64,000 nt of DNA from an uncultured Anaerolineales bacterium (GTDB lineage Bacteria > Chloroflexota > Anaerolineae > B4-G1), in the NCBI GenBank assembly GCA_964474655.1, contig CAYYTU010000002.1:64095-128094 (forward strand). The letters run 5' to 3'. The notes beneath the pieces were generated by a model, which was not told where the DNA came from, searched no databases, and saw only the letters and a list, made by a program, of their open reading frames with translations. Below are positions 3,301 through 56,007 of this stretch, piece after piece; positions within the stretch are counted from its first letter, which is position 1; each line of letters starts with the position of its first letter. The position numbers and the translations under genes were made by a program.

Positions 3301-5220
3301 CTCGGCGTTTGCCAGCACCTGCGCCACCTGATCGGCGATAGCCCCGGCAAAGCTCAATTCGTCGGGCCTCCACTCACGCGGTTCGCCAACGTGCTCGTGG
3401 CACACGACGCCGACCGTCTCGCCGGTCATCCGAATCGCCGAGTCCAGCATTGAGGTAATCCCTAGCGGTTCCAGATAATCCTCGGCAAACTCGCTGGTGC
3501 GCGGATCGGTGCGAGCGCGATCGGCGTCGATCGTCCGCTCAGTCGTCACTGCCGAGAAGTAAGCGGGGTAATCCTCCGCCTCAAGGACGACGCCCTCGGT
3601 GTGAGTTTCCGACGTGCGTTCGAAGAGATCCTGGCACGTTATCGCCCGCTGATTCTCATCCAGCATCCAGATACTGACCCGTTCGACGTCCATCGTTTCG
3701 GCCACTGTCTCCGTGATAGCTGATAGGGCCTCCTCCCAATCGCCGCTCACGACAGCGTCGTGGGTAGCCAACTCGGCGATAGCATGCTGTTGCCGCTGGA
3801 CGCGCTCCAATCGAGCCTGCTGCGCTCTCTCCGTCCGCTTGCGATCAAGGGCGCTGACAAACGTTTCGCCCACCAGATGGAGAAGGGTCGCGTCATCCTC
3901 AGACCAGGCCCGCTCCTCCTCCACCGCGTCAAACCCCAGGAATCCCACCAACTCACCCTGGTACATAGCGGGGACGACGATGAGCGATTGAATGCCCTCC
4001 GATTCAAACTCCGCCTTCTCGATCCTGGCTTCGTCGGGCATATCGGCCACGCGAGGCACCAGAACATCCTCATGGTTACGAAGCTTCTCCATCAGCCATG
4101 GGAACTGGTCGCTGGGCACTTCCTGCAAGTCGTCAATGGCGGACGCAATACCTTCAGCGCACCATTCGTGAGTATTGCTCATCTGCTCCCCATCCTCGGA
4201 GAATAAGAAGAGATAGCTGCGATCCGCCTCCGTGAACTTCCCAATATCCCGCATGGCCCGGTCGATCTCGACATCCACCGCCTGCGGCTTTACATTGACG
4301 AACCGCGTGGAGATGTTGGCGATGAGGTCCTCGAATTCAGCGCGGTACTCCAACGACCGCTCCGCTTGTTTGCGCTCGGTCACGTCGCGGATGATGGCCA
4401 GCACTTCATCCTCGCCGCTGACGACCATTCGGGCTTCGTAGTCGCGCAGCACATCGTCTTCCATACGGGGCAACCGGTACTCATAGATCGCCGGTTGACC
4501 CGAAGCCAGAACTTTCTCTATATGCTCATTGGTGAGCTGAGCGACGTGCGGAGGCAGAACGTCCTCTATATTCTGCCCCAGGAAAGCCCTCGGGGGCAAG
4601 GCCAGATCGCCTCTGCCAGCGTGGAAGTCGATGAAGACCCCCTCCCGATTCAGTCGGAACATCAAGTCGGGAATAGCCTCAAGCAATGTCTCCATCTGGG
4701 CCTGGCTCTGCTGCAACTCCTCTTCCGCCCGACTACGTTCGGTGATATCGGAGATGAAGCCCTCCAGGGCCACCAGCTCGCCGTCGTCCGAGAAGACACC
4801 CTGCCCGCGCTCCCAGACCCAGCGGGGCTCACCTTCAGCGTCTCTGATGCGATAGGTGACCTGGAAAGGCTCTTTTTTCTCAACGCCAGCCTGGACTACC
4901 TCCCACACGAGGTCCTGGTCGTCCGGATGGATCAAATCGCCATAAGCCACCAGACGGCTACCGATCAAATCCTCAGGGGCATAGCCGGTCAAGTCCTCGG
5001 CCCCTTCGCTGACGAACGCCATCGGCCAATCGGGCTCGTTGCGGCAGCGGTACGCCATGCCCGGCAAGTTGCTCATCAGCCTCGAAAGCCGACGATGGCT
5101 TTCCAACAACTTTTCCCTCGTCAATTCGCGCCCGGTGAGCTCTTCGGTCATACTTTCCTCCTCGATGGGGCCGGAGCCCTCATTCCGAACTTCCCGTTCA
5201 GGCCTCTCATTATCCATCAT
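394..5220 (-). CDS. Large cytoplasmic multi-PAS / multi-GAF signalling protein (1608 aa) with no recognisable output domain. Carries the conserved C-terminal tail module shared with the GAF paralog array.
   Basis: Six-frame ORF. Several PAS-like segments at the N-terminus, for example LMFRLNREGVFIDFHAG and DITERKQAE. Several GAF domains with the LDVQS / NARLFEQ signature. C-terminus reads REETLREITAHVRGFTDPDAIVRAAVRELGTALGRPTFARLGS followed by a DG-rich tail. Start ATGATG has GGGAG 8 nt upstream. Confidence 0.8.
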   Translation of the reverse strand: MMDNERPEREVRNEGSGPIEEESMTEELTGRELTREKLLESHRRLSRLMSNLPGMAYRCRNEPDWPMAFVSEGAEDLTGYAPEDLIGSRLVAYGDLIHPDDQDLVWEVVQAGVEKKEPFQVTYRIRDAEGEPRWVWERGQGVFSDDGELVALEGFISDITERSRAEEELQQSQAQMETLLEAIPDLMFRLNREGVFIDFHAGRGDLALPPRAFLGQNIEDVLPPHVAQLTNEHIEKVLASGQPAIYEYRLPRMEDDVLRDYEARMVVSGEDEVLAIIRDVTERKQAERSLEYRAEFEDLIANISTRFVNVKPQAVDVEIDRAMRDIGKFTEADRSYLFLFSEDGEQMSNTHEWCAEGIASAIDDLQEVPSDQFPWLMEKLRNHEDVLVPRVADMPDEARIEKAEFESEGIQSLIVVPAMYQGELVGFLGFDAVEEERAWSEDDATLLHLVGETFVSALDRKRTERAQQARLERVQRQQHAIAELATHDAVVSGDWEEALSAITETVAETMDVERVSIWMLDENQRAITCQDLFERTSETHTEGVVLEAEDYPAYFSAVTTERTIDADRARTDPRTSEFAEDYLEPLGITSMLDSAIRMTGETVGVVCHEHVGEPREWRPDELSFAGAIADQVAQVLANAERRQLERQIQESLERRAQQVELTTEIAQEIAGAPALDSLYRRVVTLVKERLGYYHVQIFRYDEDLEAMRVVEGYGEIGDKMKAAEHHLPYGEGVVGTAAATGEPMLASDVTADPHWKPHPDLPETEGELAVPIKLRDEVLGVLDVQSDQAGALTEEDQVMLLGLAGQIASAIESTNLLAEVQESQQFLDTIVDNIPNPIFYQDAEGVYLGCNEAFLEYLGMPGEDVKGKTVYDITPDQEMAELYHELDMEMLNNPCTESYEAPIEYADGSIRDVVFYKTTFRNPDGSVGGLIGTFLDITDLKETEKALQQSEERYRSYIDNAPDGIFISDEEGRYLEVNEAACRITGYSREELLEMHIVDLLPPESMAEAGDHFQQLTETGKATGDFKFIRKDGAERYWTVDAVKLSDTRFLGFTKDITERVRAEQMLNERVKELNCLTDVGQYIAEEPSIPDLLQWVAGRIPSAMRYPEVCVTAIKFEEQVYGQPQALELSCHVVSALRISGETAGHLYVAYEEDRDFIDEESAMLGGVVRRLESYIEQRLAAQQIEKRARQLAAVAEVASSTGVILDPDELIRRTADTVRERFDLYYVGLFMVDETGEWTGEPGEWAVLRTGTGEAGRQMLEDGHKLRVGGDSMVGSCVAEGEARIALDVGDEAARFDNPYLPETRSELALPITARGEIIGALTVQSTEAAAFSEEDVTVFQTMVDQVATAIENARLFEQTQDALAEAEMLYEISRELNEADTKEDLLQALARTAIESGAFDAKLSYVDLDEQGEPTGLTTVAVWRRGGALEESVGRHLPLAEFPVTRLWEGEPHSPLLVSDLAHDERIDGDVKRFLQQFGVRAVAIIPLTQVGRWAGLVTLSWDEPHQFSEREREIYRALVTLAAPVVASRRLLERAQARARREETLREITAHVRGFTDPDAIVRAAVRELGTALGRPTFARLGSAQELSQPPTDGGDGDGETAED

Positions 5221-5270
5221 CCCTCAACTCCCTACGTTAAACGCGACATCACTGCGTGGGCCAGCGACGA

Positions 5271-7049
5271 TCAATCGTCCCTCCCGTTTCCATCCCGCTG
5301 CGATGCGTCCTCGCTCCCCAGCCGCGCGAAGGTCCGCGACGTGCCCAGAGCCTTATAAAGCTCATCCAACGCTGTCTGCACGATGCCCTCCACGGTAGAG
5401 GCGCGCCGCATTTGATCCGTGATCTCACGGGTCAATCGCTCCCGGGCGGCGCGGCGCTGGGTGCTTTGATAGAGCCGCGCACTTTCCAGGGCCGCCCCTA
5501 ACTGTTCCGTCAGCGCTTCTAGCAATGAAGTCTCTTCTTTGGACCAATGCGTATCGTCGGGCGACTTGTGCGCTTTGACGGTCCCGATGACCTGATCGCG
5601 CACGACGACGGGGATGGAAAACTCCGGCAAATCCTCTTGAGCCTCATCCATCTGACGACTTCCAGCCGAGAAGACACCCTCTGCATCACAATAATAACTC
5701 AACTCAGCGCGGGCCCGCAATATCTCCGCCCACGCCTCACGGCTCAGATCACCGTAGGCCCGCTGGACCCGCTCCAGGTTTTCCTGTGCTTGCTGGTAAA
5801 GCCGGGTGTTGCTGATCGCCATTGCCACCTGATCGGCCATCGTCTGAAGCACGGTCACGTCACTTTCGGTAAAGGCATCTACCTCGGTGGACTGGACATC
5901 GAGGACGCCAATGATCTCGCCACGCGCCCGCAGGGGCAACGCCGCCTCCGCCCGTACATCAACCCGGTCCGTATCATGGACGAAGAAAGGATCGTCGATC
6001 ACGTCTTGCGCCACGTAGGCCTCTCCCGTTTCGGCGACGTGACCCACCGTGCCCTCCTCCCCCACCCGGAGCCGGAAGTCCTGCTCCAGCGTCTCCCCCA
6101 CGGTCGCACCGGACGCAGCGTGGAGCACAGCCCACTCGCCGGTATCGTCCATCAGGAAAATACCCTGGCGGGAAAAGTCGAACCGCTCGTCGATCAACGT
6201 CACCACGCGTTCCATCAGCGCCGGCACGTCGAGCTCGACCGCAGCGCTGTGGGATACATCGGCGGCGGCTTGAAGATGCCGAGCGCGCTTCGCTTCGACC
6301 GCCATCTGGCGTTCCAGATCGCCATAAAGCTCTTGGAAAGCCCTCCGCATCCGATCCAGGGCCTGCCCAAGCGCCACCACTTCCGACGAGCCTCGAATTG
6401 GAATCGACGTGTCCAGATTCCCATGCCCAATGGCTTCGGCGGCGGCGCCCAGCTCCTTGAGCGACGACGTAGCACGCCGGGTCAAGAGAGCGGTGGTCAG
6501 GACGCCACCCGCGACAACCGCGACGATGGTAAGGACCATCTGGACGATCATCGGCCTAAACGAGGCCCAAAACGGCGTCAGATCAATGACGATCTCCAAC
6601 GTCCCCAGCTGGTCCGTACTCGTAGCAATAGGGCCACACAAAACCAAGTAATTTCTGCTTTCTTGCTGAACTATGTCGCCGCTGGCAAGCGCCTGGGCAG
6701 CCAGGTCCCGGCCAACGTGCTCGTCTAGAGCGGGGTCGAAGTCCTCTATCGCAGCTTCGACGATACTCTCACCCGTCTCATCCCGCACCTCAGCCCGAAC
6801 GGCGTTGACCTTTCCCACCAACTGGCTCAACATGCGCTCCAATTTCAGGTGGTCGGACTCGTAGAGGGGATCAACCATCAACTCAGACGAAAGGGAGAGC
6901 AGGGTACGATTATTCTCCTCCAGCCGTTGCCGACTGGAAAGACGCCCCGCGCGTAAGCCGACAATCAGGAAGACGCCAAGACCCACCACGAGAATACCCC
7001 CCACAACCCAGGAGGCTATCGTGATGAGGCTAAATCGTTTATGCTCCAT
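5271..7049 (-). CDS. Membrane sensor-like protein: 2 TM helices with a periplasmic domain, HAMP, GAF, a half-GAF and the conserved C-terminal tail. No kinase or other output domain.
   Basis: ORF 5271..7070. The tool start is TTG; the first ATG (MEHKRF) is at 7049 and has a GGAG upstream. TM segments are LITIASWVVGGILVVGLGVFLIV and IVQMVLTIVAVVAGGVLTTALL. GAF signature PLRARGEIIGVLDVQSTE. Tail is QRRAARERLTREITDQMRRASTVEGIVQTALDELYKALG. Confidence 0.72.
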   Translation of the reverse strand: MEHKRFSLITIASWVVGGILVVGLGVFLIVGLRAGRLSSRQRLEENNRTLLSLSSELMVDPLYESDHLKLERMLSQLVGKVNAVRAEVRDETGESIVEAAIEDFDPALDEHVGRDLAAQALASGDIVQQESRNYLVLCGPIATSTDQLGTLEIVIDLTPFWASFRPMIVQMVLTIVAVVAGGVLTTALLTRRATSSLKELGAAAEAIGHGNLDTSIPIRGSSEVVALGQALDRMRRAFQELYGDLERQMAVEAKRARHLQAAADVSHSAAVELDVPALMERVVTLIDERFDFSRQGIFLMDDTGEWAVLHAASGATVGETLEQDFRLRVGEEGTVGHVAETGEAYVAQDVIDDPFFVHDTDRVDVRAEAALPLRARGEIIGVLDVQSTEVDAFTESDVTVLQTMADQVAMAISNTRLYQQAQENLERVQRAYGDLSREAWAEILRARAELSYYCDAEGVFSAGSRQMDEAQEDLPEFSIPVVVRDQVIGTVKAHKSPDDTHWSKEETSLLEALTEQLGAALESARLYQSTQRRAARERLTREITDQMRRASTVEGIVQTALDELYKALGTSRTFARLGSEDASQRDGNGRDD

Positions 7050-7086
7050 AAAATGATTCTCCGTCCTCAAACGCCATCAGGTTGGG

Positions 7087-9588
7087 CTAGCGCCCATCGG
7101 TCTCGTTCAGCTGAACTGTGACATCATGCAGATCCAACGCCTCACGCATTTCGCGCACGGCGGTCTTTAATACGCTTTCCATATCCAGCGTCTGGCGCAT
7201 GCGGGCCGTAGCCTCACTCGTCAGACGCTCGCGGGCGGCCCGACGCTGGGTCTCCTCGTATAATCGCGCTCGCTCCAGCGTCACGTTCAAGCGCTCAGTC
7301 ACGATTTCCATTAACGCTATCTCCTCCTCAGACCAGGCGCCGTCCTCGTCCGATTTGCGCAGCCGTATCGCTCCCACGACGTTTCCACGAATCCTGATCG
7401 GGATAGCCAGAGTGGTTCCGGCTTGCTGAACTGTGCTTCTCTCCTGGCTCACCATCTCCATGACAGAAGGTGGAACTCCCTCAACCGGTCGCACGCCCTT
7501 GACGTCACTGGCGTAGCCCAGATGGGCCTGTCTCTGGACCATCTCCTGCCAGGCGCGACGACTGAGCTCACCGTGAGCGCGCCGCTCCGCCTCCAGGCTC
7601 TCCTGCGCTTGCTGGAAGAGCTGCGCGTTGCTGATCGCCAGCGCCACTTGATCGGCCAGCACCTGCAACACCGCGGTATCCTCCTCCGTAAACGCCTGCG
7701 CCTCCATGCTCTGCACGTCGAGGGCGCCGATGATCTCTCCCCGGGCTCGCAGCGGCAAGGTCATGGCCGAACGCGTCTCCGGAAGGTCTGGATTGTCGAA
7801 GAAGACGGCGTCTTCGCCCACGTCCAGCGCGACGCGAGGCTCTCCGTGCGCCGTCACATACCCCACGGTGCCCGTCTGGCCCACCTTCAAACGGTGTCCC
7901 CGCTCCAACATTCGCGCCCCACCCGCGCTGGAGGCGGCCCGGAGCACGGCCCATTCCCCCGTCTGATCGAGCAAGAAAAGGCCCGAATGGTAGAACCCGA
8001 ACCGATCACTGATCAGCCGTACCACGCGGGAGAGCAGATCGTCGAGATCCAACTCAGAAGCTGCATCGCGCGCCACCTCGGCGGTGGCTTCCAGGTAACG
8101 GGCGCGCTCCTCCAGATCCTGGGTGCGTTCCTCCACTCGCTCCTCCAGGGACTCGATCAAATCGCGCAAACGGGCTGCCATCTCATTGAACACGGTGGCC
8201 AGCTGCCCCAGCTCGTCATTGGAGCTTATCTCCTGAGGGAAAGTGGACGCCTCGGCCGCGGTACTCTCCGCCAAGTTGCCGATGCCGCCGCCGGAGCGCA
8301 CCGGGACGCGATAATCCAGATCGCCAGCGGCGATCCGTTCCACGCCCTCCGTGAGCACCTCCAAAGGGCGTCCCACGATGTAACGGAGGCTGAAGTAGAC
8401 GACGAGACCGACCAGCAAGGTTCCCATCACTGCCGTGAGCCAGATGCGAGACAACAAGCGTCGGGTCACCTGCTCCACCTCCACGACAGGGCTCAAGACG
8501 ACAGCCCGGAGATCGGCGGCAGCCCCCCCCAATGAAGCCCCGGATAGAGCCAACGGTTCCTGCGCGTAGTAGAACTCGGTCTCGTCCAGCGTTAAGGTCG
8601 TCTGGCCTTGCTCCAGCATCCTTGCCGCCCCAAGCCCTCCGTCGCCGTCCAGGCTGGTGTTCAACAGTCGTCCGCCTCGCGCCAGCCCCACGTCCAATCC
8701 CAGCTGGTTCTTGAGCCGCGTCATCATAGCGGCGTCGAACTTCTGCTCTACCAATATCAATCCCACCGACGCTACCTCTTCCTCCCAGGTCTCCGGGTGA
8801 GCAACCGGCCCCTTCACCGGATACCACGTCTGCAAGATCGGGATATTCCCTTCGACGACTATCTCCGAACGCGGTGGGGCATCCGGCTCCCAATCTCGTG
8901 GGAAGAATTCATAGGCAATCACCCTCTCCACCCGGGTGAAGTTCTGATCGGCGTAGAATTGGGCCGGAGGCGCCGAGTAGGCCGCACTGATGTCGAAGTA
9001 ACCGGGCTCTGGAGCGCGGAACGCCTCCGCATCGATGCTGTATGTCATACGCGAGTCCAGGTCGACCTTGCTGGTGAACCGATTCAGCACAATCTCATCC
9101 TCACCGAGACGAAAAGCCAGCACCGGTCTGACGTCAGAGACGACGTCGAATGGCGAAATCAAATAAAAGCTGATCGCCGTCAGATCGTTCAACCGCTGCG
9201 CCGAGCGCAAGAGCTGGACGAGATTGAGCTGGGCCTGAAAGGCATAGATCTGACTAGCGGGCTCGATGGGCTCGTCCGAACGCACGAGGGCTTCTCCAAA
9301 AGAGGATCCGGGGTCGGCGTAATAAGGGCCCAGATTGGTCAGGAGCTGGATCTCCTCGACCATAGACTCGTTCTCCTCCATACTCATTCCGGTCACCGCT
9401 GCGTTCTGCTCCATCTCAGCGATGCGCCTGGCGAAGATCTGCGACATACGCGCCAGCTCATCCTGTTTGACCGCCTCCAGGTCACTGGAGCTGGAGCTGC
9501 CCACCACAAACGAGATTCCGGCGGCGAACAGCAGGAAGATAACGCCCACGACGACCATCAATTTTTGACCAACGCCCCATCTAGACAT
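7087..9588 (-). CDS. Membrane sensor-like protein: large ~330-aa periplasmic domain, HAMP, GAF, half-GAF and conserved tail. No output domain.
   Basis: 833-aa ORF. TM segments MVVVGVIFLLFAAGISFVV and IWLTAVMGTLLVGLVVYF. HAMP motif IAAGDLDYRV. GAF signature LPLRARGEIIGALDVQSMEAQAFTEED. Tail is QRRAARERLTSEATARMRQTLDMESVLKTAVREMREALDLHDVTVQL. Confidence 0.75.
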   Translation of the reverse strand: MSRWGVGQKLMVVVGVIFLLFAAGISFVVGSSSSSDLEAVKQDELARMSQIFARRIAEMEQNAAVTGMSMEENESMVEEIQLLTNLGPYYADPGSSFGEALVRSDEPIEPASQIYAFQAQLNLVQLLRSAQRLNDLTAISFYLISPFDVVSDVRPVLAFRLGEDEIVLNRFTSKVDLDSRMTYSIDAEAFRAPEPGYFDISAAYSAPPAQFYADQNFTRVERVIAYEFFPRDWEPDAPPRSEIVVEGNIPILQTWYPVKGPVAHPETWEEEVASVGLILVEQKFDAAMMTRLKNQLGLDVGLARGGRLLNTSLDGDGGLGAARMLEQGQTTLTLDETEFYYAQEPLALSGASLGGAAADLRAVVLSPVVEVEQVTRRLLSRIWLTAVMGTLLVGLVVYFSLRYIVGRPLEVLTEGVERIAAGDLDYRVPVRSGGGIGNLAESTAAEASTFPQEISSNDELGQLATVFNEMAARLRDLIESLEERVEERTQDLEERARYLEATAEVARDAASELDLDDLLSRVVRLISDRFGFYHSGLFLLDQTGEWAVLRAASSAGGARMLERGHRLKVGQTGTVGYVTAHGEPRVALDVGEDAVFFDNPDLPETRSAMTLPLRARGEIIGALDVQSMEAQAFTEEDTAVLQVLADQVALAISNAQLFQQAQESLEAERRAHGELSRRAWQEMVQRQAHLGYASDVKGVRPVEGVPPSVMEMVSQERSTVQQAGTTLAIPIRIRGNVVGAIRLRKSDEDGAWSEEEIALMEIVTERLNVTLERARLYEETQRRAARERLTSEATARMRQTLDMESVLKTAVREMREALDLHDVTVQLNETDGR

Positions 9589-9630
9589 AGCCAGCCTCTC
9601 TCATCCCCAACTCACCCAAGACTAAATCGC

Positions 9631-11373
9631 TCACTCGCTCTCGCTCGCCCAGCGTTCGATCAGCTCATCATATTCAACTGTCTGTGGCTGCTCAGGAAGA
9701 CGCGCCGACTTGGGCGCGCCGGGCGCCGCCAACCATTCGTAGGGGTCGCGGTAGGTATTAAGCCGAGGTGAATACTTCGCCATCCGCATACGGCTCATCG
9801 CCTCATCCATCTGCCGGGCGATAGCATCCATCGCCTGCTGCGGCATCACGTCCCCCTCGAGCGCCCGGGCGATATTCGGCCACCAGTATCCAGATAATTC
9901 GGGGTAATCAGGCACGTTCGGGCCTGTGTCCGTCCACTTATCCTCCTCATCCGAGCGATAGAACTCGATCAACCCGCCCCATTGTTCCTTACGCTCCGTG
10001 AGATAATCCGAAAAGATCGTGGAGTGGCGCACCGGTGTGCCGCCCTCCAGGAACTTCTGCAGGGCCACCGTCTTAGAGACACAGAACTGGGCCCAAAGCC
10101 AGGCCATCGCCCGCCGCTGCCCTTTGACGTTCCTGGGAATGGTCCAGCTGCCAGCGTCCTGGTAGCCGACCTTCATCCCCTCATCCCAGTAGCGTCCGTG
10201 CGGCGTCGGCGCCACGCGCCACAAGCGATTACCGTCTTTGTCCACTACCGGGCTACCCGGCTCGTGGAAAGATTCATCGGAAAGCCAGGTGATATACTGG
10301 AATATCTTCTGCGCGATATCACCCCGCGAGGCCTTCGGACCAGCGTCGACCCAGCGCCAGTCCAGGGCCTCCGGCGGTGCATACTCCTCCAGCCACTTGA
10401 TGTAAGTTGACAGAGCGTAGACGGCAGCCGGCCCATTGGTCGCGCCGCCGCGGGCCACAGAGGCACCTACCGGAACCTTGTCTTCAACCCGAATGCCCCA
10501 CTCATCGACGGGCAAACCATTGGGCAAGCCCCTGTCGCCCACGCCAGCGATCGAGAGCCAGGCATCGGTAAAACGCCAGCCGAGGGAGGGCGATTTCTTG
10601 CCATAGTCCAAGTGTCCATAGACCATCTGCCCTTCAATCTCCCGTCCAGTGAAGAAGGTTGCAATATCCTCGTAGGCAGCCCAGTTGAGCGGCACACCCA
10701 GCTCGTAGCCGTACTCCTCCTCGAAGGCAGCTTTGATCTCGGGATCGGTGAACCAATCGTAGCGGAACCAATAGAGATTGGCAAACTGCTGATCGGGCAG
10801 CTGGAGCTGGTTGCCATCGTAATCCTGTCCAAACTCCAGGTTCAAGAAATCATCCAAATCCAGATCGGGGTTTGTAAATCGCTGGCCCTCACCGACCATA
10901 TACGCACTCAGGTCGACTACGCTCTGGCTACGCAGGTGCGTACCCACCAGATCGGCATCGTTGACGTAGATGTCGTAAATGATGCGCCCGGTGCTTTGCT
11001 GCTCCACCAACCGCTCGACGACCGTGCCCTCGCCCACAATCTCGTGCTCCACGTGGATACCGGTGAGCTCCTCAAAGGCCTCCGCCAACACCTCACTCTC
11101 CCAGAAGTGCGTGTTGATGTCCTCCGCCACGGAGGTGATACTACGCCCCCGAAACGGCTCAGAGGCTTCAACAAACCAACGCAGCTCAGACACACGCTCC
11201 TGCCGGGAAAGGACGGACGGCTCGAACACGTCGGCCCACTTCTGAACTGCCTCCTCGTATGCATCATCGGACACAGTGGACTGGGCCATAGCCGGCCCTG
11301 CGGTCCACAAAACCAACGAAACGCAGACGCCGAAGATCAACCCCTTCGTCAGCATCGGGACACCCGCTCTCAC
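9631..11373 (-). CDS. ABC-transporter-type extracellular solute-binding protein (family 1-like). Orphan: no permease or ATPase gene is present in the window.
   Basis: 580-aa ORF with a signal peptide MLTKGLIFGVCVSLVLWTAGPAMAQ. The GTG start at 11373 overlaps the stop of the upstream GAF gene (GTGA) and follows GGAGGAGGA. An alternative ATG is at 11355. The protein is Trp/Tyr-rich, as is typical of sugar-type solute-binding proteins. Confidence 0.7.
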   Translation of the reverse strand: MRAGVPMLTKGLIFGVCVSLVLWTAGPAMAQSTVSDDAYEEAVQKWADVFEPSVLSRQERVSELRWFVEASEPFRGRSITSVAEDINTHFWESEVLAEAFEELTGIHVEHEIVGEGTVVERLVEQQSTGRIIYDIYVNDADLVGTHLRSQSVVDLSAYMVGEGQRFTNPDLDLDDFLNLEFGQDYDGNQLQLPDQQFANLYWFRYDWFTDPEIKAAFEEEYGYELGVPLNWAAYEDIATFFTGREIEGQMVYGHLDYGKKSPSLGWRFTDAWLSIAGVGDRGLPNGLPVDEWGIRVEDKVPVGASVARGGATNGPAAVYALSTYIKWLEEYAPPEALDWRWVDAGPKASRGDIAQKIFQYITWLSDESFHEPGSPVVDKDGNRLWRVAPTPHGRYWDEGMKVGYQDAGSWTIPRNVKGQRRAMAWLWAQFCVSKTVALQKFLEGGTPVRHSTIFSDYLTERKEQWGGLIEFYRSDEEDKWTDTGPNVPDYPELSGYWWPNIARALEGDVMPQQAMDAIARQMDEAMSRMRMAKYSPRLNTYRDPYEWLAAPGAPKSARLPEQPQTVEYDELIERWASESE

Positions 11374-13232
11374 GTCTCATCCTCCTCCAAGGCAGTCTGC
11401 ATAATCCGCACCTCGGCCTCCTCCAGATCCAACGCCGTACGCATCTCACGAACAGCGGTCTGGAGCACGTCCTCCACGTCAAGCGACTGGCGCATATGCG
11501 TGGTAATCTGACCGATCAACTGCTCGCGCTGAGCCCGGCGCCGGGTCTCCTCCAGCAGACGAGCGTTCTCCAGCGCCAGCGCGATCTGATCGCTGATTTC
11601 CTCCATCAGCGCTACCTCCTCCGGCGACCAAGGCTCTTCGTCCGGACCTTGCTTTAAGAGAATCGATCCGATGTTCTGGCCCCGCAGCTGGATGGGCGCG
11701 GCCAGCTGACGACCGTTCCTTTCCTGGATGACCTTCGCCTCGCCAACCGTCTCCGTCAGTTCGGGCGACTCGGCTTCCTGGACGCCCATGTGGGTATAAT
11801 GGTAGGCTGAGCTGCGCGCGATGGATGGACGCTGCCACGCCTCGCGCACCCGCTCCCCATAAAGCCGTTCCAGCTCTCTCAAGGCCCGCCCACTTTCCTC
11901 AAGCAAGCGTGCATTTTCGATGGCGAGAGCGATCTGGTCGGCCAGGGACTTGATGATGGCCACATCCTGGTCGCTGAAGGCTCCCTTCTCCTTCGATTGA
12001 ATATCTATCACACCGATGATCTCGCCCCGCAACTCCATCGGCACCGCCACCTCTGAATGCGTCTCGGGCAGATCGGGGTTAGTAAAATGAACCGCGTCCT
12101 CGCCCACGTCCAGCGCCACACGCGTTGTGCCAGAGGCCGCCACCGCCCCCACAATCCCCTGACCCCCTACCTTCAGGCGATGGCCTCGCTCTAACATGCG
12201 GCGCCCACCCTCCGAAGACGCAGCCTGGATGACGGCGTACTCCTTATCCTCGTCCAATAGAAAGATGCCGGTATGGTAGAAGCCCAACAGCACGGACATC
12301 AGATGAGCAGTCTCGTCCAACAGTTGATCAACGTCACGGATAGAGGCCGCTTGCCTGGCCACCTGAGCAGCGCCTTCCAGCTCAAACAGGGTCTCCTCCA
12401 GCTCACGCGTACGCTCATTCACCCGCTGCTCCAGCTCTGACAACATCTCTTGTAATCGAGATGAGGTCTCGTTGAGCGTCCGAGCCAACATGCCGATCTC
12501 ATCGTGACGCTCCACTTCCACCCGCCGGGATAGGTCTCCCTGCTGAACAGCTTCGGCTGCATCCACCAGGGCCTCAATGGGCCGGGTGATACTGCCGGTA
12601 ACCATAAATACCATCCAAGAACCAATAAGGATCGCCCCCAGAGCTGCCAGGATCCAGTACCAACGGAGATTTCTCTGGATGCGCGTCGATTCGCCCATCG
12701 ACGCCTGGAGATCATGACGGAGACCATCCTCCAGGGCCTCCAAGTTCTCGTTGAAACGGCGCTCAAGCGTGGCCAGATCTGTGTGGCGCATTGTCTGAGC
12801 CCGAGACCAGCGGCCCGCGCGAGCCATAGTGGCCAATTCGGCCATCTGCTCAGCTAACTCCGCCCCCAACCTCCGAAGTGCCTCCACGGTCTCCGCATTC
12901 TGCCCGGTGATTGTAGCGGAGTCCCCGGTCGTTTCGTCCTGCAGCGCGTACAGCTCCTGATTGAGGGCCTGGAGGTCAGCGCTCAACCGATCCTCCGTCA
13001 CTCCCGTCTGACGGGTAAGCAATATCTGATCGACCGTGGACATCGCCTTCAGCCATTTTAACTTCAGATCGGCCAGCTGTTCGATTGAGACCCGGCGCTG
13101 ACGCGAGGCCTCGGACGCTCGCTCCATCTCTTGGATATAGATCAGCCCAGCTCCGCTGACGAACAAGCCCAGCACGATCATCACGCCAAAAGCGATTATC
13201 AGGCGCTGCCTTACGGATAGATTCAATCCCAT
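11370..13232 (-). CDS. Membrane sensor-like protein: periplasmic helical domain, HAMP, GAF, half-GAF and conserved tail. No output domain.
   Basis: ORF 11370..13244. The tool start is TTG; ATG (MGLNLS) is at 13232 with GGAGG 4 nt upstream. TM segments LIIAFGVMIVLGLFVSGAGLIYI and WYWILAALGAILIGSWMVFMV. GAF signature VAVPMELRGEIIGVIDIQS. Tail is RRRAQREQLIGQITTHMRQSLDVEDVLQTAVREMRTALDLEEAEV. Confidence 0.75.
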   Translation of the reverse strand: MGLNLSVRQRLIIAFGVMIVLGLFVSGAGLIYIQEMERASEASRQRRVSIEQLADLKLKWLKAMSTVDQILLTRQTGVTEDRLSADLQALNQELYALQDETTGDSATITGQNAETVEALRRLGAELAEQMAELATMARAGRWSRAQTMRHTDLATLERRFNENLEALEDGLRHDLQASMGESTRIQRNLRWYWILAALGAILIGSWMVFMVTGSITRPIEALVDAAEAVQQGDLSRRVEVERHDEIGMLARTLNETSSRLQEMLSELEQRVNERTRELEETLFELEGAAQVARQAASIRDVDQLLDETAHLMSVLLGFYHTGIFLLDEDKEYAVIQAASSEGGRRMLERGHRLKVGGQGIVGAVAASGTTRVALDVGEDAVHFTNPDLPETHSEVAVPMELRGEIIGVIDIQSKEKGAFSDQDVAIIKSLADQIALAIENARLLEESGRALRELERLYGERVREAWQRPSIARSSAYHYTHMGVQEAESPELTETVGEAKVIQERNGRQLAAPIQLRGQNIGSILLKQGPDEEPWSPEEVALMEEISDQIALALENARLLEETRRRAQREQLIGQITTHMRQSLDVEDVLQTAVREMRTALDLEEAEVRIMQTALEEDET

Positions 13233-13250
13233 CACCGCCTCCAAACGGGC

Positions 13251-15512
13251 CTAACCTCTCTCTACCACCTGCTCACCCAACGAGGAGCGACCTTCGTCGC
13301 CATCTCCCAACCGAATCCACGCCTCCGAGGCCCGCAAAGATTGTCCCAGCTCCCGAACCGCTGTGCGCAAGATGGCATCGATGTCGGAGGAAGCGCGCAC
13401 CTGGGATGTGATCTTGGCGGCCAAACGCTCCCGCTCGGCCCGCCGTTCCGTCTCCTCCAGCAGCCGTAACCCCTCAAGCGCTACCGCAATCTGATCGGCC
13501 AGGGTGCGGTAAAGTCGTATCTGGCGTTTGCTGAACGCGTAAGTCCCTTCCAAGGACTCGACGAGGAGCCATCCCAGGAACCGCTCGCCGGCGATTAGAG
13601 GTATCATAGCCATAGCATCAACCCCCAGCACATGCTGGAAGAAGTACTGAGAAGTCTCGTCCAGGGCCGACGATGTAGCCACATCCGCGATGACCAACGG
13701 GTCGGAGGACAGATCGGCCATAATAGGCGCTTGCGACATGCTCCAGCGGGTGCCGAGCAGGTCCGGTTGCTCGATGCCCGGCTCCCACGCAGCCCCGACT
13801 TCCACTACCCGATCGCCGCTGATAGTTTCGGGGCCGACGAAGGCCAAAACACAACGGTCTATCTGGGGCGGAATGACGTGGTTGGTGAAGGCCCGCAAAA
13901 TATCGGCGCGGGATTGAGCGGCCACGATGGCCCGACTGGCACGATAGAGCGCCTCCGTCTCCCCCAGCGCTCTCTGCGTCTCCTGGAAGAGCCGAGCGCT
14001 CTCCAGCGCCTGGCTCGCCTGGTCGGCCACGGACTTGACCAACGCTTCTTCCTCGGAAGTAAGTGGGCGCTCGCCCAGATCCAGATTCAGGCGTCCGATT
14101 GCCTCCCCCCGCACCCGGAGCGGGACAGTCGACTGGGGCTCCCGGCCCGGCAACTCCTCCGACTTGCGCGACGTGACATGCCCGCTATCGTAGATGTAGC
14201 CCCAGCCTGGTCGCTCCGCCACAGCCCGCTCCCAACCCTCCAGGCTCTCCTGGCGCAGCAGCGCCTTCACCTCTCGCACCCGGGCCTGAGCCTCCTCCAG
14301 CAAGCGCGTGTTATCAATGGCCAGCGCCACCTGATCGGCCATCGTCTGGAGGATAGAGATGTCCTCATCGTCGAAGGCCTGGGCCTCGGTGGACTGGACG
14401 TCCAGCACGCCGATAACCTCGCTGCGCACTTCCAGCGGCAACGCCATCTCCGACCGGGTAAGGGGAAGGTCAGGGTTATCGAAGAAGACCGCATCATCAC
14501 CCACGTCAAGGGCGATACGTGGCTCCGCAGCCTGGGCCACGTATCCCACAATCCCCTCCTGCCCGACCGCCAACCGGTGACCGCGCTTGAGCATCTGCTC
14601 CCCCCCCTCGGACGAAGCCGAGCGGAGGACAGCGTACTCCTGCAAATCATCCAGCAAGAAGAGACCAGCGTGGTAGAAGTCAAAGCGCTCCGAGATCAGG
14701 TTGACCACGCGCTCCAGCAATTGGTCCAGGTCGTGAATCGCGCTTGCCTCTCTGGCCACCAGGGCTGCAGTCTCCAGCTGGGTGGAACGCTGCCTCAGGT
14801 CAGCGGTGCGGTCGGACACCTGCTGCTCCAGAGAATGGCGGTGCTCATCAAGGGCATCCCGCGTGCTTCGCAGGCGATCTATCGTATCATGCAACGTGCG
14901 CATGTTCAGATACGTGAGTAAACCGACGGTGGTGACCAGCATCAACAACGTGAAGGCAAGCTGGGTAAACTCTCGACCGGCCGGTTCCAGTGTGAGAAGC
15001 GGCGCATAGAACCCCAGATGCTCAAGCCCGAACAGAACCGCAAAATAGCCGACCACCAATCCTGTCATAAGCAACGAATAACGAGGAGACAGCAGAACCC
15101 CGGCGATGGTAATCGTCCAGGCGTAGAGAATCCACGCCGGCGATCGTATGCCATCGAACGTGAAGGCCGCCGCCCCAATGCCCACGAAGTTGATCCAGAC
15201 GAAGAAGAGCAACATCGAACGGATGCGGCCGCGCTTGGCCTGGGTCATACAGAACAGAGAGAGGGGAATAAACCCCAGCGGGAAGGCGGCAGCGATCAAA
15301 GCAACAGAGCGCTCGGTCATCCCCAGCAGCCAGCTCGAGACAAACGTAAGGACCAGGGAAATTGTGATCCCGATACTGATCATCAGCAAGGTGTTGAAGA
15401 GACGACCCTGACGCGCCTTCTCATCATCAGGCACGTCAACCGCGACCAGTCGGTCCCACCTGGACGTAATGCGAGCCCAAACGTTCGTGGATTGCTCGTT
15501 CATATCATTCAT
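13251..15512 (-). CDS. Polytopic membrane protein (about 6-7 TM helices) with a coiled coil, GAF, half-GAF, a second GAF and the conserved tail. No output domain.
   Basis: 753-aa ORF. Hydrophobic N-terminal 200 aa. GAF signature LPLEVRSEVIGVLDVQSTEAQAF. Tail is ERRAERERLAAKITSQVRASSDIDAILRTAVRELGQSLRASEAWIRL. Confidence 0.75.
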   Translation of the reverse strand: MNDMNEQSTNVWARITSRWDRLVAVDVPDDEKARQGRLFNTLLMISIGITISLVLTFVSSWLLGMTERSVALIAAAFPLGFIPLSLFCMTQAKRGRIRSMLLFFVWINFVGIGAAAFTFDGIRSPAWILYAWTITIAGVLLSPRYSLLMTGLVVGYFAVLFGLEHLGFYAPLLTLEPAGREFTQLAFTLLMLVTTVGLLTYLNMRTLHDTIDRLRSTRDALDEHRHSLEQQVSDRTADLRQRSTQLETAALVAREASAIHDLDQLLERVVNLISERFDFYHAGLFLLDDLQEYAVLRSASSEGGEQMLKRGHRLAVGQEGIVGYVAQAAEPRIALDVGDDAVFFDNPDLPLTRSEMALPLEVRSEVIGVLDVQSTEAQAFDDEDISILQTMADQVALAIDNTRLLEEAQARVREVKALLRQESLEGWERAVAERPGWGYIYDSGHVTSRKSEELPGREPQSTVPLRVRGEAIGRLNLDLGERPLTSEEEALVKSVADQASQALESARLFQETQRALGETEALYRASRAIVAAQSRADILRAFTNHVIPPQIDRCVLAFVGPETISGDRVVEVGAAWEPGIEQPDLLGTRWSMSQAPIMADLSSDPLVIADVATSSALDETSQYFFQHVLGVDAMAMIPLIAGERFLGWLLVESLEGTYAFSKRQIRLYRTLADQIAVALEGLRLLEETERRAERERLAAKITSQVRASSDIDAILRTAVRELGQSLRASEAWIRLGDGDEGRSSLGEQVVERG

Positions 15513-15513
15513 C

Positions 15514-16173
15514 CTAGCCTACTAACGCAAAAGCCAGGGCGTAAGCTGCCCAGATCCAAAGTCCCTGGACACCCCCCAGAATCGGCGCCAGCCACCAGGG
15601 ACGCTCTTCCAATCGCCACACCAGGAGCACTGCCCCACCGGCGATCAAGAACTCTCCCATGATGATGTAAAGCGGAACCGGCCCCCACATTTGCGTCTGC
15701 TCATAAAACCACCACACGGCCCCCTTGGCCCACCATTCGTAGAGCGGAATCGTGGCAGCCCCCAACAATCCAGTCAGCACCACCGCCCATCCCAGATCGA
15801 TTTTTTGCGACAGTCGCCAGCCGATGTAGGCCGTCTGAACCAGGACAACGCCCCAGGCGAAGGGCATATAAAGCGGCGAGCGAACGACAAAAGGCCCGCC
15901 CGGGTGAAAGACCAGCGTCTCGGTCACATCCACCAGCCAGCGATCGGCCAACAGCTCCGTCCAGCCTGCCACCATAGCCAGAAGAAGGAGACGTCCCGTC
16001 AGGCGGTTCCGACTCCAGAGAAAATAGCCGATGAAGATAAGCCAGTTGAGGGCAGTGATGATACTAGCGCCGATCCAGCCCGGAGCCAGCAGCGAGCAGA
16101 GCCCATTCCAGAGAAGCGTCAGCGCCAAAGTGCCACCGATAATCCAGTCACGCGATCGCGGCATCGTCTCCAT
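15514..16173 (-). CDS. Hypothetical integral membrane protein (about 6 TM helices), embedded between two GAF genes.
   Basis: ORF 15514..16224. The preferred start METMPRS at 16173 has GGGGAGG 7 nt upstream. This start still overlaps the upstream gene end (16148) by 26 nt. The stop is 1 nt from the next gene start. Rich in Trp, Leu and Gly. No family recognised. Confidence 0.5.
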   Translation of the reverse strand: METMPRSRDWIIGGTLALTLLWNGLCSLLAPGWIGASIITALNWLIFIGYFLWSRNRLTGRLLLLAMVAGWTELLADRWLVDVTETLVFHPGGPFVVRSPLYMPFAWGVVLVQTAYIGWRLSQKIDLGWAVVLTGLLGAATIPLYEWWAKGAVWWFYEQTQMWGPVPLYIIMGEFLIAGGAVLLVWRLEERPWWLAPILGGVQGLWIWAAYALAFALVG

Positions 16174-19060: not shown

Positions 19061-19096
19061 AATGGCTCCGTTCCAAACAACCTCCCAAACCCTCGC

Positions 19097-20285: not shown

Positions 20286-20316
20286 ATCGATTACGCCAGA
20301 ACTTCACGGGCCTGCT

Positions 20317-24159: not shown

Positions 24160-24196
24160 AAGCCCAAGCTCCCAGCCTCAAAACCGTCCCGTGTCT

Positions 24197-56006: not shown

Positions 56007-56007
56007 C

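What the first reader, a model, noticed from the sequence alone, without database searches (positions are those of the whole stretch)
9631..11373. Orphan family-1-like solute-binding protein translationally coupled (GTGA overlap, GGAGGAGGA) to the upstream GAF sensor gene
A 580-aa solute-binding protein with a signal peptide is embedded between sensor genes. No permease or ATPase is present anywhere in the 64-kb window. The start overlaps the stop of the preceding GAF gene, which implies stoichiometric co-expression. This is the arrangement expected for solute-binding-protein-dependent ligand sensing, as in LuxP/LuxQ or TorT/TorS, here by sensors with large periplasmic domains.
Basis: inference. 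Interest (0 to 1): 0.55.

Follow-up and report, generated by a model that had tools for sequence, protein, structure and literature searches.

The report
Glycerol-type binding protein paired with sensor
This gene encodes a secreted nutrient-binding protein of the glycerol-transporter type that has no transporter nearby and is almost always found just upstream of one particular, undescribed membrane sensor, so it most likely acts as that sensor's detachable ligand detector.

Summary
The ORF is real: 9631..11373 (-), 580 aa, signal peptide, GTG start overlapping the upstream TGA, GGAGGAGGA 6 nt upstream. It is a family-1 (MalE-like fold) solute-binding protein (SBP), a full-length homologue (50-55% identity) of GlpV, the SBP of glycerol ABC importers (glpSTPQUV).

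It belongs to a separate clade (62-89% identity). That clade's conserved neighbour is the DOWNSTREAM gene 7087..9588, not the translationally coupled upstream gene. The downstream protein's 400-aa N-terminus is a rare extracytoplasmic domain with no Pfam family, predicted to be dCache-like.
- All 26 loci found with that domain have this SBP directly upstream.
- 10 of 11 SBP relatives examined have the domain directly downstream.
- The pairing holds across Chloroflexota, Thermodesulfobacteriota, Candidatus Magnetomorum and an Osedax symbiont, while the output changes (histidine kinase, GAF-only, SpoIIE, MCP).
- In four loci glp-type ABC genes lie next to the clade-A SBP (three also carry the sensor).

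The overlap is ordinary operon packing. "No ATPase in the window" is literally wrong, because a CbiM/CbiO cobalt transporter is present. This is a new variant of a known kind. Binding, ligand and the output of the kinase-less receptor remain untested.

The parts
9631..11373 (-). Gene for a 580-aa GlpV-like family-1 solute-binding protein of the sensor-linked clade A
   Evidence: ORF. More than 8000 homologues, several named 'glycerol transport system substrate-binding protein' by JGI. AlphaFold2 model has pLDDT 70; best folds are 5iai, TMBP 1eu8 and MalE. 52-55% identical to SBPs of canonical glp operons. Falls in the sensor-linked clade of an NJ tree.
11284..11373 (-). Signal peptide (aa 1-30, AMA|Q cleavage motif; no lipobox)
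   Evidence: Read from the sequence. The motif is conserved in orthologues. The model shows a helix at residues 8-30.
11370..11388 (-). Junction: GGAGGAGGA (11388..11380), 6-nt spacer, GTG start (11373..11371) overlapping the upstream TGA (11372..11370)
   Evidence: The same GGAGG...(G/A)TGA junction is found in L003, L006 and L005/L012.
9589..9630 (-). 42-nt spacer between the SBP stop and the downstream sensor start, carrying GAGAGAGG before the ATG; no terminator
   Evidence: sequence. One search finds no terminator-like or promoter-like site at the SBP borders, and counts are no higher than in shuffled sequence.
7087..9588 (-). Proposed partner: 833-aa membrane receptor (TM1, about 345-aa extracytoplasmic domain, TM2, HAMP, GAF, half-GAF, conserved tail) with no kinase or other enzymatic output
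   Evidence: Pfam finds only HAMP and GAF. Orthologues always follow the SBP gene.
8389..9588 (-). N-terminal 400 aa of the receptor: a sensor domain with no Pfam family (predicted dCache-like) flanked by two TM helices
   Evidence: No Pfam family. Only 44 clusters among 1.84 billion representative proteins. AlphaFold2 pLDDT 83. Foldseek matches sensor-kinase ectodomain 8w7p, dCache chemoreceptor domains and the LuxQ periplasmic domain. An HMM of the domain hits only this ORF in the window.
11370..13244 (-). Upstream 4HB_MCP-HAMP-GAF receptor whose stop overlaps the SBP start; not the conserved neighbour
   Evidence: Pfam. The gene in this position varies among relatives.
19097..20164 (-). Second SBP in the array (NMT1/THI5 type), directly upstream of a dCache-HAMP-GAF receptor
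   Evidence: Pfam. The same order is seen in L003, L005 and L008.
16148..19060 (-). dCache-HAMP-GAF receptor that follows the NMT1-type SBP (second SBP-then-sensor cassette)
25329..28625 (-). The only transmitter set of the array: dCache-HAMP-GAF-HisKA-HATPase kinase (25329..27788) and two single-domain response regulators (27814..28230, 28227..28625)
   Evidence: Pfam. The same kit (sensor-HAMP-GAF-HisKA-HATPase plus two response regulators) follows the SBP in L038 and L041.

Best explanation
The protein is a secreted paralogue of GlpV, the binding protein of glycerol ABC importers. It serves as the extracellular ligand-binding subunit of the membrane receptor encoded immediately downstream (7087..9588).

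Proposed mechanism:
1. The SBP is exported through its signal peptide.
2. It binds a small polyol, most likely glycerol or a close relative.
3. In the closed, loaded form it docks on the receptor's dCache-like extracytoplasmic domain.
4. The signal passes through TM2 and the HAMP domain into the cytoplasmic GAF module.

In relatives the same SBP and sensor domain are wired to a histidine kinase plus response regulators, sometimes next to glp-type ABC genes, so the ancestral job is probably control of polyol uptake. In this Anaerolineae-type window the kinase part is absent. The receptor is one of eight output-less GAF receptors in a single co-directional array. It presumably passes its state on by protein contact, perhaps to the array's single kinase (25329..27788) and two response regulators.

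Shown: the gene, the SBP fold and family, the clade split, and the near-invariant SBP-then-sensor-domain synteny with changing outputs.
Inferred: physical binding, the ligand, and the output route.
For: 1. SBP identity. Fold matches to carbohydrate SBPs 5iai, 1eu8 and MalE have target-normalised TM-scores of 0.69-0.74 for the four best matches. Identity to SBPs sitting in glpD-glpS-glpT-glpP-glpQ-DUF2160-SBP-glpK operons of Azospirillum and Thalassospira is 52-55% over 92-99% of the length. That layout is the one described for glpSTPQUV (PMC7912956, citing Ding 2012).

2. Distinct clade. Sensor-linked SBPs are 62-89% identical to each other and at most 58% identical to transporter-linked ones. 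The NJ tree separates the two groups. Nineteen fixed differences cluster at residues 177-190, 339-341 and 363-365.

3. Synteny tested in both directions.
- Starting from the sensor domain, 16 of 16 genome loci and 10 of 10 metagenome loci have the SBP directly upstream on the same strand. The gap is 100 nt or less in 22 of them.
- Starting from SBP homologues, 10 of 11 have the domain directly downstream (HMM E of 1e-113 or better).

4. The pairing survives changes of output and of phylum.
- Among 37 proteins carrying the domain, Pfam finds HAMP in 33, HATPase_c in 23, HisKA in 17, GAF in 12, response-regulator receiver in 6, SpoIIE in 2 and MCPsignal in 1.
- Hosts include Anaerolineae, Caldilineaceae, Promineifilaceae, Thermodesulfobacteriota, Candidatus Magnetomorum and an Osedax symbiont.
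- The window's domain is 36% identical over 399 aa to the N-terminus of a Thermodesulfobacteriota kinase.

5. The sensor domain is predicted dCache-like, with matches to the LuxQ periplasmic domain. This is the fold class of many SBP-stimulated receptors (PMC8050422).

6. In L038 and L041 the order is SBP, sensor-HAMP-GAF-HisKA-HATPase, two response regulators, then GlpS/GlpT-like ATPases. In L024 the pair lies next to a phosphorelay, a LuxR-type response regulator and Glp-type ATPases.

7. No terminator separates the SBP from its neighbours, and no cognate permease is in the window.

8. The theme recurs locally. NMT1-type SBP followed by a dCache receptor is seen in this window and in L003, L005 and L008. 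An ABC_sub_bind-GAF fusion is present in L005.
Against: - No physical interaction, ligand binding or expression was tested. All support comes from gene neighbourhood and predicted folds.
- The SBP model is only moderate (pLDDT 70). The sensor-domain fold matches have low TM-scores (0.5 or less), so 'dCache-like' is tentative.
- One clade member (P0111 in L010) sits at the end of a full glp ABC operon with no such sensor nearby. Glp ATPases adjoin the pair in three other loci. The SBP may therefore also, or instead, feed a transporter.
- The rest of this genome could not be searched for glpSTPQ.
- The receptor here has no recognisable output domain, so the downstream path is conjecture.
- The tree has no bootstrap support.
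- Three of the SBP-first and sensor-first loci are the same contigs (L005=L012, L006=L011, L007=L015).
Confidence: 0.7

Rival explanations
1. It is an ordinary transport SBP. The protein delivers glycerol or a similar solute to a GlpSTPQ-type ABC importer encoded elsewhere in the genome, and its position among sensor genes has no functional meaning.
For: It is a full-length GlpV homologue. P0111, a member of the same clade, lies in a glp ABC operon. Glp-type ATPases lie near the pair in L024, L038 and L041. Orphan SBPs that share a distant transporter are common (general knowledge).
Against: 26 of 26 sensor-first and 10 of 11 SBP-first tests show a fixed SBP-then-sensor-domain order across several phyla, although flanking genes and output domains change. 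Transporter-linked GlpVs form a separate clade at 58% identity or less, and all four examined follow glpS-glpT-glpP-glpQ-DUF2160. In L010 the transporter already has its own clade-B SBP.
Confidence: 0.08
2. It has a dual role, like MalE, ChvE or GltB. The SBP both loads a glp-type ABC importer and activates the downstream sensor. This is compatible with the best explanation but adds a transport role.
For: Glp-type ABC genes are adjacent in L010, L024, L038 and L041. Of 225 positions invariant in clade A, 165 are identical in all four transporter-linked sequences. Dual-use SBPs are documented (PMC8050422).
Against: L010 keeps a separate clade-B SBP next to the permeases. Most loci, including this 64-kb window, have no glp permease nearby. 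The fixed differences cluster in a few surface-sized patches, which would fit a change of docking partner. That reading is an inference.
Confidence: 0.2
3. The partner is the upstream 4HB_MCP-HAMP-GAF receptor (11370..13244), to which the SBP gene is translationally coupled, or the SBP serves several receptors of the array.
For: There is a 4-nt overlap with a strong Shine-Dalgarno sequence, kept in close orthologues. Four-helix-bundle domains do bind SBPs in Tar, LytS and GlnX (PMC8050422).
Against: The upstream gene is a different protein in L005, L007 and L008, and no long same-strand ORF precedes the SBP in L009, L013/L014 (contig edge), L020, L021, L024 and L026. The sensor-domain HMM hits only 7087..9588 in the window. 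Overlaps occur at other junctions of the array.
Confidence: 0.07

Closest known systems
CuaD-CuaS-CuaR three-component system of Ruminiclostridium cellulolyticum (PMC10384115)
   Same: A second SBP is dedicated to signalling and encoded next to a sensor. The sensor has two TM helices, an unannotated ectodomain of about 270 aa and a HAMP domain. The system controls an ABC importer that has its own SBP (CuaA). That is the layout seen in L010, L038 and L041.
   Different: CuaD is a 410-aa lipoprotein specific for cellobiose, whereas this is a 580-aa GlpV-type protein with a type-I signal peptide. CuaS is a histidine kinase with a YesN/AraC-type regulator. The receptor here has no kinase. No sequence relationship to CuaD or CuaS was tested.
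GlpV of the glpSTPQUV glycerol ABC importer (Rhizobium leguminosarum; Ding 2012 as cited in PMC7912956)
   Same: Full-length homology at 50-55% identity, the same unusual length (about 560-585 aa), and the same family name in JGI annotation.
   Different: It belongs to a separate clade. It does not follow glpS-glpT-glpP-glpQ-DUF2160. No glpD or glpK gene was recognised among the window ORFs scanned against Pfam. It is followed instead by a sensor gene.
GltB-GtrS and NspS-MbaA (family-1/8 SBPs that stimulate a sensor kinase or a GGDEF-EAL protein; PMC8050422)
   Same: An SBP_bac_1/8-class SBP is encoded next to a signalling protein whose ectodomain is unannotated (GtrS) or dCache-like (MbaA).
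   Different: The SBP subfamily, ligand and sensor domain family differ. The outputs are kinase or c-di-GMP enzymes, whereas here the output is GAF-only.
LuxP-LuxQ and TorT-TorS
   Same: An SBP without a transporter is encoded beside its sensor. The LuxQ periplasmic domain is among the fold matches of the sensor domain.
   Different: LuxP and TorT are Peripla_BP_4 and Peripla_BP_1 type SBPs, not family 1. The TorS sensor is an all-helical bundle. Both sensors are hybrid kinases.

Membership tests
Family-1 (SBP_bac_1/SBP_bac_8, MalE-like) solute-binding proteins | Match to the Pfam family models above the curated threshold | tested here: not met
   SBP_bac_8 scores 17.4 bits against a cut-off of 27, and SBP_bac_1 is not reported. 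Some close homologues carry precomputed PF01547 or PF13416 hits.
Family-1 (SBP_bac_1/SBP_bac_8, MalE-like) solute-binding proteins | Two-lobe periplasmic-binding-protein fold of the MalE/TMBP type | tested here: met
   The AlphaFold2 model (pLDDT 70) matches 5iai, 1eu8, 6dtq and MalE structures, with E down to 2e-15 and target-normalised TM-score up to 0.74. phmmer against 5iai gives E=1.7e-8.
Family-1 (SBP_bac_1/SBP_bac_8, MalE-like) solute-binding proteins | Export signal | tested here: met
   The n-region, h-region and AxA pattern is read from the sequence and conserved in orthologues. No signal-peptide predictor was available.
GlpV (SBP of the glpSTPQUV glycerol importer) | Full-length sequence homology to SBPs encoded in glp operons | tested here: met
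   53% identity over 97% of the length to the Azospirillum B510 SBP, which lies between DUF2160 and glpK. 53.5% identity to the Thalassospira SBP. 52% identity to the transporter-adjacent SBP of L010.
GlpV (SBP of the glpSTPQUV glycerol importer) | Gene lies with glpS, glpT, glpP, glpQ and the DUF2160 gene | tested here: not met
   No GlpP, GlpQ or DUF2160 homologue is in the 64-kb window. The only ABC ATPase is CbiO.
GlpV (SBP of the glpSTPQUV glycerol importer) | Groups with transporter-linked GlpVs in a tree | tested here: not met
   The NJ tree places it in the sensor-linked clade A. Mean identity is 54.5% between clades and 73-74% within clades.
GlpV (SBP of the glpSTPQUV glycerol importer) | Binds glycerol | not testable with these tools
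   Needs ITC or thermal shift on purified protein. No liganded structure of a close relative exists (best PDB match is 19% identical).
SBP-dependent sensors (three-component systems) | SBP gene adjacent to the sensor gene, conserved across lineages | tested here: met
   26 of 26 sensor-first loci and 10 of 11 SBP-first loci.
SBP-dependent sensors (three-component systems) | Sensor has an extracytoplasmic domain between two TM helices | tested here: met
   The model has helices at residues 6-72 and 368-399 flanking two alpha/beta modules. Fold matches are to sensor ectodomains.
SBP-dependent sensors (three-component systems) | Ligand-loaded SBP binds the sensor ectodomain and changes its output | not testable with these tools
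SBP-dependent sensors (three-component systems) | Sensor carries a transmitter (kinase, MCP, GGDEF/EAL or Ser/Thr kinase; the four classes listed in PMC8050422) | tested here: not met
   The window protein has only HAMP, GAF, a half-GAF and a tail. Relatives of the same sensor domain do carry HisKA/HATPase, SpoIIE or MCPsignal.
dCache sensor domains | Match to Pfam dCache models | tested here: not met
   No Pfam family reaches significance for residues 1-400; the only listed match is DUF438, E=0.22.
dCache sensor domains | Long N-terminal helix followed by two PAS-like alpha/beta modules | tested here: inconclusive
   The secondary-structure order fits. Foldseek lists dCache domains and LuxQ, but with TM-scores of 0.5 or less.

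The most novel reading that the evidence does not exclude
The SBP-stimulated receptor here is a transmitter-less HAMP-GAF protein. It would be a fifth class beside the chemoreceptors, kinases, c-di-GMP enzymes and Ser/Thr kinases known to be driven by SBPs.

It would work as one channel of an array longer than 28 kb. The array holds eight paralogous kinase-less receptors with different input domains, two of which are fed by their own SBP. All share a GAF, half-GAF and conserved 55-aa tail module. Together they would converge by protein contact on a single kinase and two response regulators, forming a chemoreceptor-like multi-input integrator in Anaerolineae.
Probability: 0.2. Interest if true: 0.75.

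Novelty: new variant of a known kind. Interest (0 to 1): 0.5.

Why it matters
- SBP-dependent sensing is thought to be widespread but has been shown in few systems, none of them in Chloroflexota (PMC8050422). This locus defines a two-gene module that can be recognised by sequence: a GlpV-paralogue SBP plus an undescribed ectodomain. It spans several phyla and would let annotators separate 'signalling' from 'transport' GlpV-like proteins.
- The module gives a concrete candidate ligand class (glycerol or related polyols) for an orphan sensor family.
- It links that sensor family to glp-type ABC importers as the likely regulated target.
- The kinase-less version in this window raises the question of how arrays of output-less HAMP-GAF receptors in Anaerolineae transmit signals.

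Tried and rejected
- The word-indexed homologue search with the sensor ectodomain returned only 2 hits and was uninformative. The exhaustive HMMER search replaced it.
- The 16-sequence domain alignment A3 was too diverse for the locus scan. The 5-sequence alignment A4 worked.
- NCBIfam has no model for the SBP.
- The hybrid kinase upstream of the glp operon in L010 shows no similarity to the sensor domain (BLASTP, tblastn and HMM found nothing).
- The chemoreceptors beside the canonical glp operons of Azospirillum and Thalassospira have helix-rich periplasmic regions (judged from sequence). The domain HMM does not hit them.
- The idea that the conserved C-terminal tail of the GAF paralogues is the missing N-terminal part of a circularly permuted GAF was tested with hhalign. 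The half-GAF aligns to the C-terminal half of GAF1 at 97.8% probability. The tail aligns to the GAF1 N-terminus in the expected register but without significance (P=0.036, 1.4% probability). This is left unproven.
- A lipoprotein anchor was rejected. The Cys at residue 17 lies within the hydrophobic core, is not preceded by a lipobox, and is absent in several orthologues.
- The 1.8-kb gap between SBP and sensor in L017 is an inserted DNA methylase/Mrr gene, not a break in the association.
Full report
**The observation**

The minus strand carries an ORF at 9631..11373 of 580 aa starting with GTG. Read on the minus strand, the junction is ...TTGGAGGAGGATGAGACGTGAGAGCGGGTGTCCCGATGCTG.... The upstream gene (11370..13244) ends ...E-E-D-E-T-TGA. 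The GTG at 11373..11371 shares three bases with that TGA and overlaps the upstream gene by 4 nt. GGAGGAGGA lies at 11388..11380, 6 nt upstream.

Public gene calls on two identical short-read contigs chose the ATG six codons further in (574 aa). I favour the GTG for three reasons:
- The ATG has no comparable Shine-Dalgarno sequence.
- Orthologues at 85-89% identity (L003, L006) have no ATG near the junction.
- Those orthologues keep the same TGGAGG...GACGTGA junction, and L005/L012 have GGAGGAGGGCGACGTATGATG.

The N-terminus (MRAGVPMLTKGLIFGVCVSLVLWTAGPAMA|QS) has the shape of a type-I signal peptide, and the AxA motif is conserved in orthologues. There is no lipobox.

A 4-nt overlap is the commonest overlap in bacterial operons (general knowledge). 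It recurs at two other junctions of this same array, so it is not remarkable in itself.

The statement that no permease or ATPase occurs in the window is not literally true. An ABC ATPase (54083..55534) and CbiM (56008..56769) belong to an ECF-type cobalt transporter inside a haem/cobalamin cluster. ECF transporters do not use SBPs (general knowledge). No homologue of the cognate permeases was found.

**What the protein is**

Pfam alone is inconclusive: SBP_bac_8 scores 17.4 bits against a threshold of 27. NCBIfam has nothing. The wider evidence is clear:
- The homologue search returned 8000 proteins at E of 0.001 or below (the scoring cap). The 120 listed are 63-89% identical over nearly the full length.
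- Several are named 'glycerol transport system substrate-binding protein' by JGI.
- The best solved relative is the sugar SBP 5iai.
- An AlphaFold2 model (pLDDT 70, pTM 0.64) matches 5iai, the trehalose/maltose-binding protein 1eu8 and many MalE structures (E down to 2e-15; target-normalised TM-score 0.69-0.74 for the four best matches).

Against annotated plasmids, 369 records match and all are below 60% identity. In Azospirillum sp. B510 and Thalassospira marina the matching gene (53% identity) is the SBP of glpD, two ATPases, two permeases, DUF2160 and SBP (followed by glpK in Azospirillum). This is the glpSTPQUV layout described for the Rhizobium leguminosarum glycerol importer (PMC7912956, citing Ding et al. 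2012). The protein is therefore a GlpV-type family-1 SBP.

**Surroundings in the window**

From about 28.6 kb down to 0.4 kb every gene is on the minus strand with short gaps. In order of transcription:
- two single-domain response regulators (28227..28625 and 27814..28230)
- a dCache-HAMP-GAF-HisKA-HATPase kinase (25329..27788)
- a ParA-like ATPase (24472..25332)
- two MASE11-GAF proteins (22159..24159 and 20317..22068)
- an NMT1/THI5-type SBP (19097..20164)
- a dCache-HAMP-GAF protein (16148..19060)
- a DUF6989 protein (15514..16224)
- a multi-TM GAF protein (13251..15512)
- a 4HB_MCP-HAMP-GAF protein (11370..13244)
- the SBP (9631..11373)
- an 833-aa HAMP-GAF protein with a large unassigned N-terminal domain (7087..9588)
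- a HAMP-GAF protein (5271..7070)
- a 1608-aa PAS/GAF protein (394..5220)

None of the eight GAF proteins has a kinase, cyclase or other output domain. No terminator-like or promoter-like site lies at the SBP's borders, and the counts equal those in shuffled sequence.

**The conserved neighbour is the downstream gene**

I looked up the genomic context of eleven SBP homologues at 67-100% identity.
- In relatives of the Anaerolineae type (L003, L005, L006, L007, L008) the gene upstream of the SBP differs. It is 4HB-HAMP-GAF, a 1024-aa GAF protein, a 1471-aa PAS/GAF protein, or dCache-HAMP-GAF.
- The gene downstream is always an 811-833-aa HAMP-GAF protein.
- In a Thermodesulfobacteriota genome (L009), in Candidatus Magnetomorum (L028) and in two further assemblies (L029, L030), the SBP is followed by HAMP-containing histidine kinases of 719-1225 aa.

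The first 400 residues of the window's downstream protein are 36% identical over 399 aa to the N-terminus of the L009 kinase (E=2.5e-81). An HMM of this region hits the gene after the SBP in every one of these loci (E between 1e-113 and 1e-160) and only one ORF in the window.

The exception is P0111 (L010). It lies at the end of a complete glp-type ABC operon that already has its own 583-aa SBP.

**The reverse test**

- The 400-aa region has no Pfam family.
- It is rare, with 44 clusters among 1.84 billion representative proteins.
- Of 37 full-length carriers, Pfam finds HAMP in 33, HATPase_c in 23, HisKA in 17, GAF in 12, a receiver domain in 6, SpoIIE in 2, Hpt in 2 and an MCP signalling domain in 1. 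It therefore behaves as a modular sensor domain.
- Scanning species-representative genomes with an alignment of the domain gave 16 loci from Anaerolineae, Caldilineaceae, Promineifilaceae and an Osedax symbiont. Scanning metagenome contigs gave 10 more.
- In all 26 loci, tblastn finds the GlpV-like SBP (63-85% identity) directly upstream on the same strand. The gap is 100 nt or less in 22 of them.
- The larger gaps are a 1.8-kb DNA methylase/Mrr insertion in L017 and a roughly 200-aa unassigned ORF in the Osedax symbiont loci.
- Three genome loci are the same contigs as three SBP-first loci (L005=L012, L006=L011, L007=L015).

**Two clades of SBP**

A neighbour-joining tree of 28 SBPs separates the sensor-linked proteins (including P0111) from four transporter-linked ones. 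All four transporter-linked proteins follow glpS-glpT-glpP-glpQ-DUF2160.
- Mean identity is 73-74% within clades and 54.5% between them.
- Of 225 positions invariant in the sensor-linked clade, 165 are identical in all four transporter-linked sequences.
- Nineteen are fixed differences, clustered at residues 177-190, 339-341 and 363-365.

The tree has no bootstrap, but the identity gap is wide.

**The sensor domain**

The AlphaFold2 model (pLDDT 83, pTM 0.77) shows a long N-terminal helix running out of TM1, two alpha/beta modules, and a C-terminal helix running into TM2. Foldseek against the PDB returns a sensor-kinase ectodomain (8w7p), dCache chemoreceptor domains (TlpA, PctA, PctC, McpX) and the LuxQ periplasmic domain from the LuxP-LuxQ complex (2hj9, 1zhh, 3c38). 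TM-scores are 0.5 or less, so 'dCache-like' is a tentative description. It is nevertheless the fold class that the review of SBP-stimulated receptors lists for LuxQ, VirA, ChiS, MbaA, ScrC, BasT and CosT (PMC8050422).

**Link to transport**

- In L038 and L041 the order is SBP, sensor domain-HAMP-GAF-HisKA-HATPase, two receiver proteins, a GlpS-like MalK-type ATPase, a GlpT-like ATPase, and then the contig ends.
- In L024 the pair lies back to back with a receiver-HisKA_3-HATPase protein, a LuxR-type response regulator and Glp-type ATPases.

These loci look like classical three-component systems placed beside the importer they probably control. The same arrangement holds in Ruminiclostridium cellulolyticum, where the signalling SBP CuaD works with CuaS and CuaR to induce cuaABC, whose transporter has its own SBP, CuaA (PMC10384115).

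**Mechanism proposed**

The exported SBP binds glycerol or a close polyol. The ligand is inferred only from family membership. The loaded SBP docks on the dCache-like ectodomain of the 7087..9588 receptor and switches HAMP and the GAF module.

In the window the HisKA-HATPase part present in L038 and L041 is replaced by a half-GAF and a conserved tail of about 55 aa (RRAARERL..EI....R.S.D.E.IL.TAV.E...AL......V.L). All eight paralogues share this tail. How this module signals is unknown. I suggest contact with the array's single kinase and two response regulators, a kit that mirrors the one in L038 and L041, but this is conjecture.

**Comparison and novelty**

SBP-dependent sensing is a known kind. 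The review lists four receptor classes and hosts from Proteobacteria, Actinobacteria, Firmicutes and Archaea (PMC8050422). New here:
- the specific pair, a GlpV paralogue plus an uncurated ectodomain family
- its presence in Chloroflexota, Thermodesulfobacteriota, Candidatus Magnetomorum and an Osedax symbiont
- in this window, a receptor without any transmitter domain

My literature searches found no description of this pair, but the searchable library is incomplete. I rate it a new variant of a known kind, with moderate interest (0.5). My confidence that the SBP is the co-sensor of the downstream receptor is about 0.7. A pure transport role is unlikely (about 0.08). An additional transport role remains open (about 0.2).

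Noticed in passing
window 394..28625 (minus strand): One co-directional array holds eight paralogous GAF proteins that lack any enzymatic output and have different input modules: PAS, HAMP only, the new ectodomain, 4HB_MCP, multi-TM, dCache, and MASE11 twice. The array also holds two SBPs, a DUF6989 protein, a ParA-like ATPase, one histidine kinase and two single-domain response regulators. Similar arrays occur in L005, L006, L007 and L008.
   Followed up: partly
window C-termini of 394..5220, 5271..7070, 7087..9588, 11370..13244, 13251..15512, 16148..19060, 20317..22068, 22159..24159: All eight GAF paralogues end in the same tail of about 55 aa (RRAARERL..EI....R.S.D.E.IL.TAV.E...AL......V.L). 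In 7087..9588 the region before the tail matches only the C-terminal half of the GAF model (Pfam GAF positions 79-133), and hhalign supports the same half-GAF across seven paralogues. This may be a circularly permuted GAF. hhalign supports the half-GAF (97.8% probability) but not the tail (P=0.036).
   Followed up: partly
window 19097..20164 and 16148..19060: A second SBP-then-sensor cassette: an NMT1/THI5-type SBP directly upstream of a dCache-HAMP-GAF receptor. The same order is seen in L003, L005 and L008, where the receptor in L008 is a kinase.
   Followed up: partly
L005 19990..21722; L007 14297..18674; L005 14440..15615; L006 11325..12488: Other SBP types sit inside GAF-receptor arrays of relatives. 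They include an ABC_sub_bind-GAF fusion protein, four tandem ABC_sub_bind SBPs, a Peripla_BP_4 SBP and a Peripla_BP_6 SBP. This suggests SBP-fed sensing is a general habit of this lineage.
   Followed up: no
P0049 (833 aa) and P0075 (838 aa): These are GlpV-like SBPs at 70-72% identity that are about 250 aa longer and carry a Phosphonate-bd (PF12974) domain, so two SBP modules are fused.
   Followed up: no
L027 572..2776 (Azospirillum B510) and L032 8971..11202 (Thalassospira marina): Canonical glycerol operons (glpD, the ABC genes, DUF2160 and the SBP) carry an adjacent methyl-accepting chemotaxis protein with a helix-rich periplasmic region of about 330 aa (judged from sequence). That region is not related to the sensor domain here. 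It hints that transporter-type GlpV may also feed chemotaxis.
   Followed up: partly
L017 4274..5788: A DNA methylase plus Mrr-type restriction-endonuclease fusion gene is inserted between the SBP and its sensor gene in Anaerolineaceae bacterium 4572_78.
   Followed up: yes
L025 5305..5913 and L026 1936..2538: In the Osedax symbiont loci, a conserved ORF of about 200 aa lies between the SBP and the sensor gene; the L025 copy has no Pfam family (the L026 copy was not scanned).
   Followed up: no
window 38594..63984: A haem, sirohaem and cobalamin biosynthesis cluster: glutamyl-tRNA reductase (GlutR/HemA type), porphobilinogen deaminase (HemC type), a methylase-HemD fusion, delta-aminolevulinic acid dehydratase (ALAD/HemB type), CbiC, CbiD, CbiG, CobQ/CobB-type amidotransferases and a CobA/CobO/BtuR-type adenosyltransferase. 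It also holds a CbiM/CbiO cobalt ECF transporter. GC content rises from about 0.60 to about 0.68 beyond 46 kb.
   Followed up: partly
window 43785..45599 (+): A 604-aa ORF has no Pfam or NCBIfam match. It lies between the ALAD gene and the uroporphyrinogen methylase/HemD gene.
   Followed up: no
window 29902..30936 (+): An unusual fusion of a GIY-YIG nuclease domain, a Nudix zinc ribbon and a NUDIX hydrolase domain in one 344-aa ORF.
   Followed up: no
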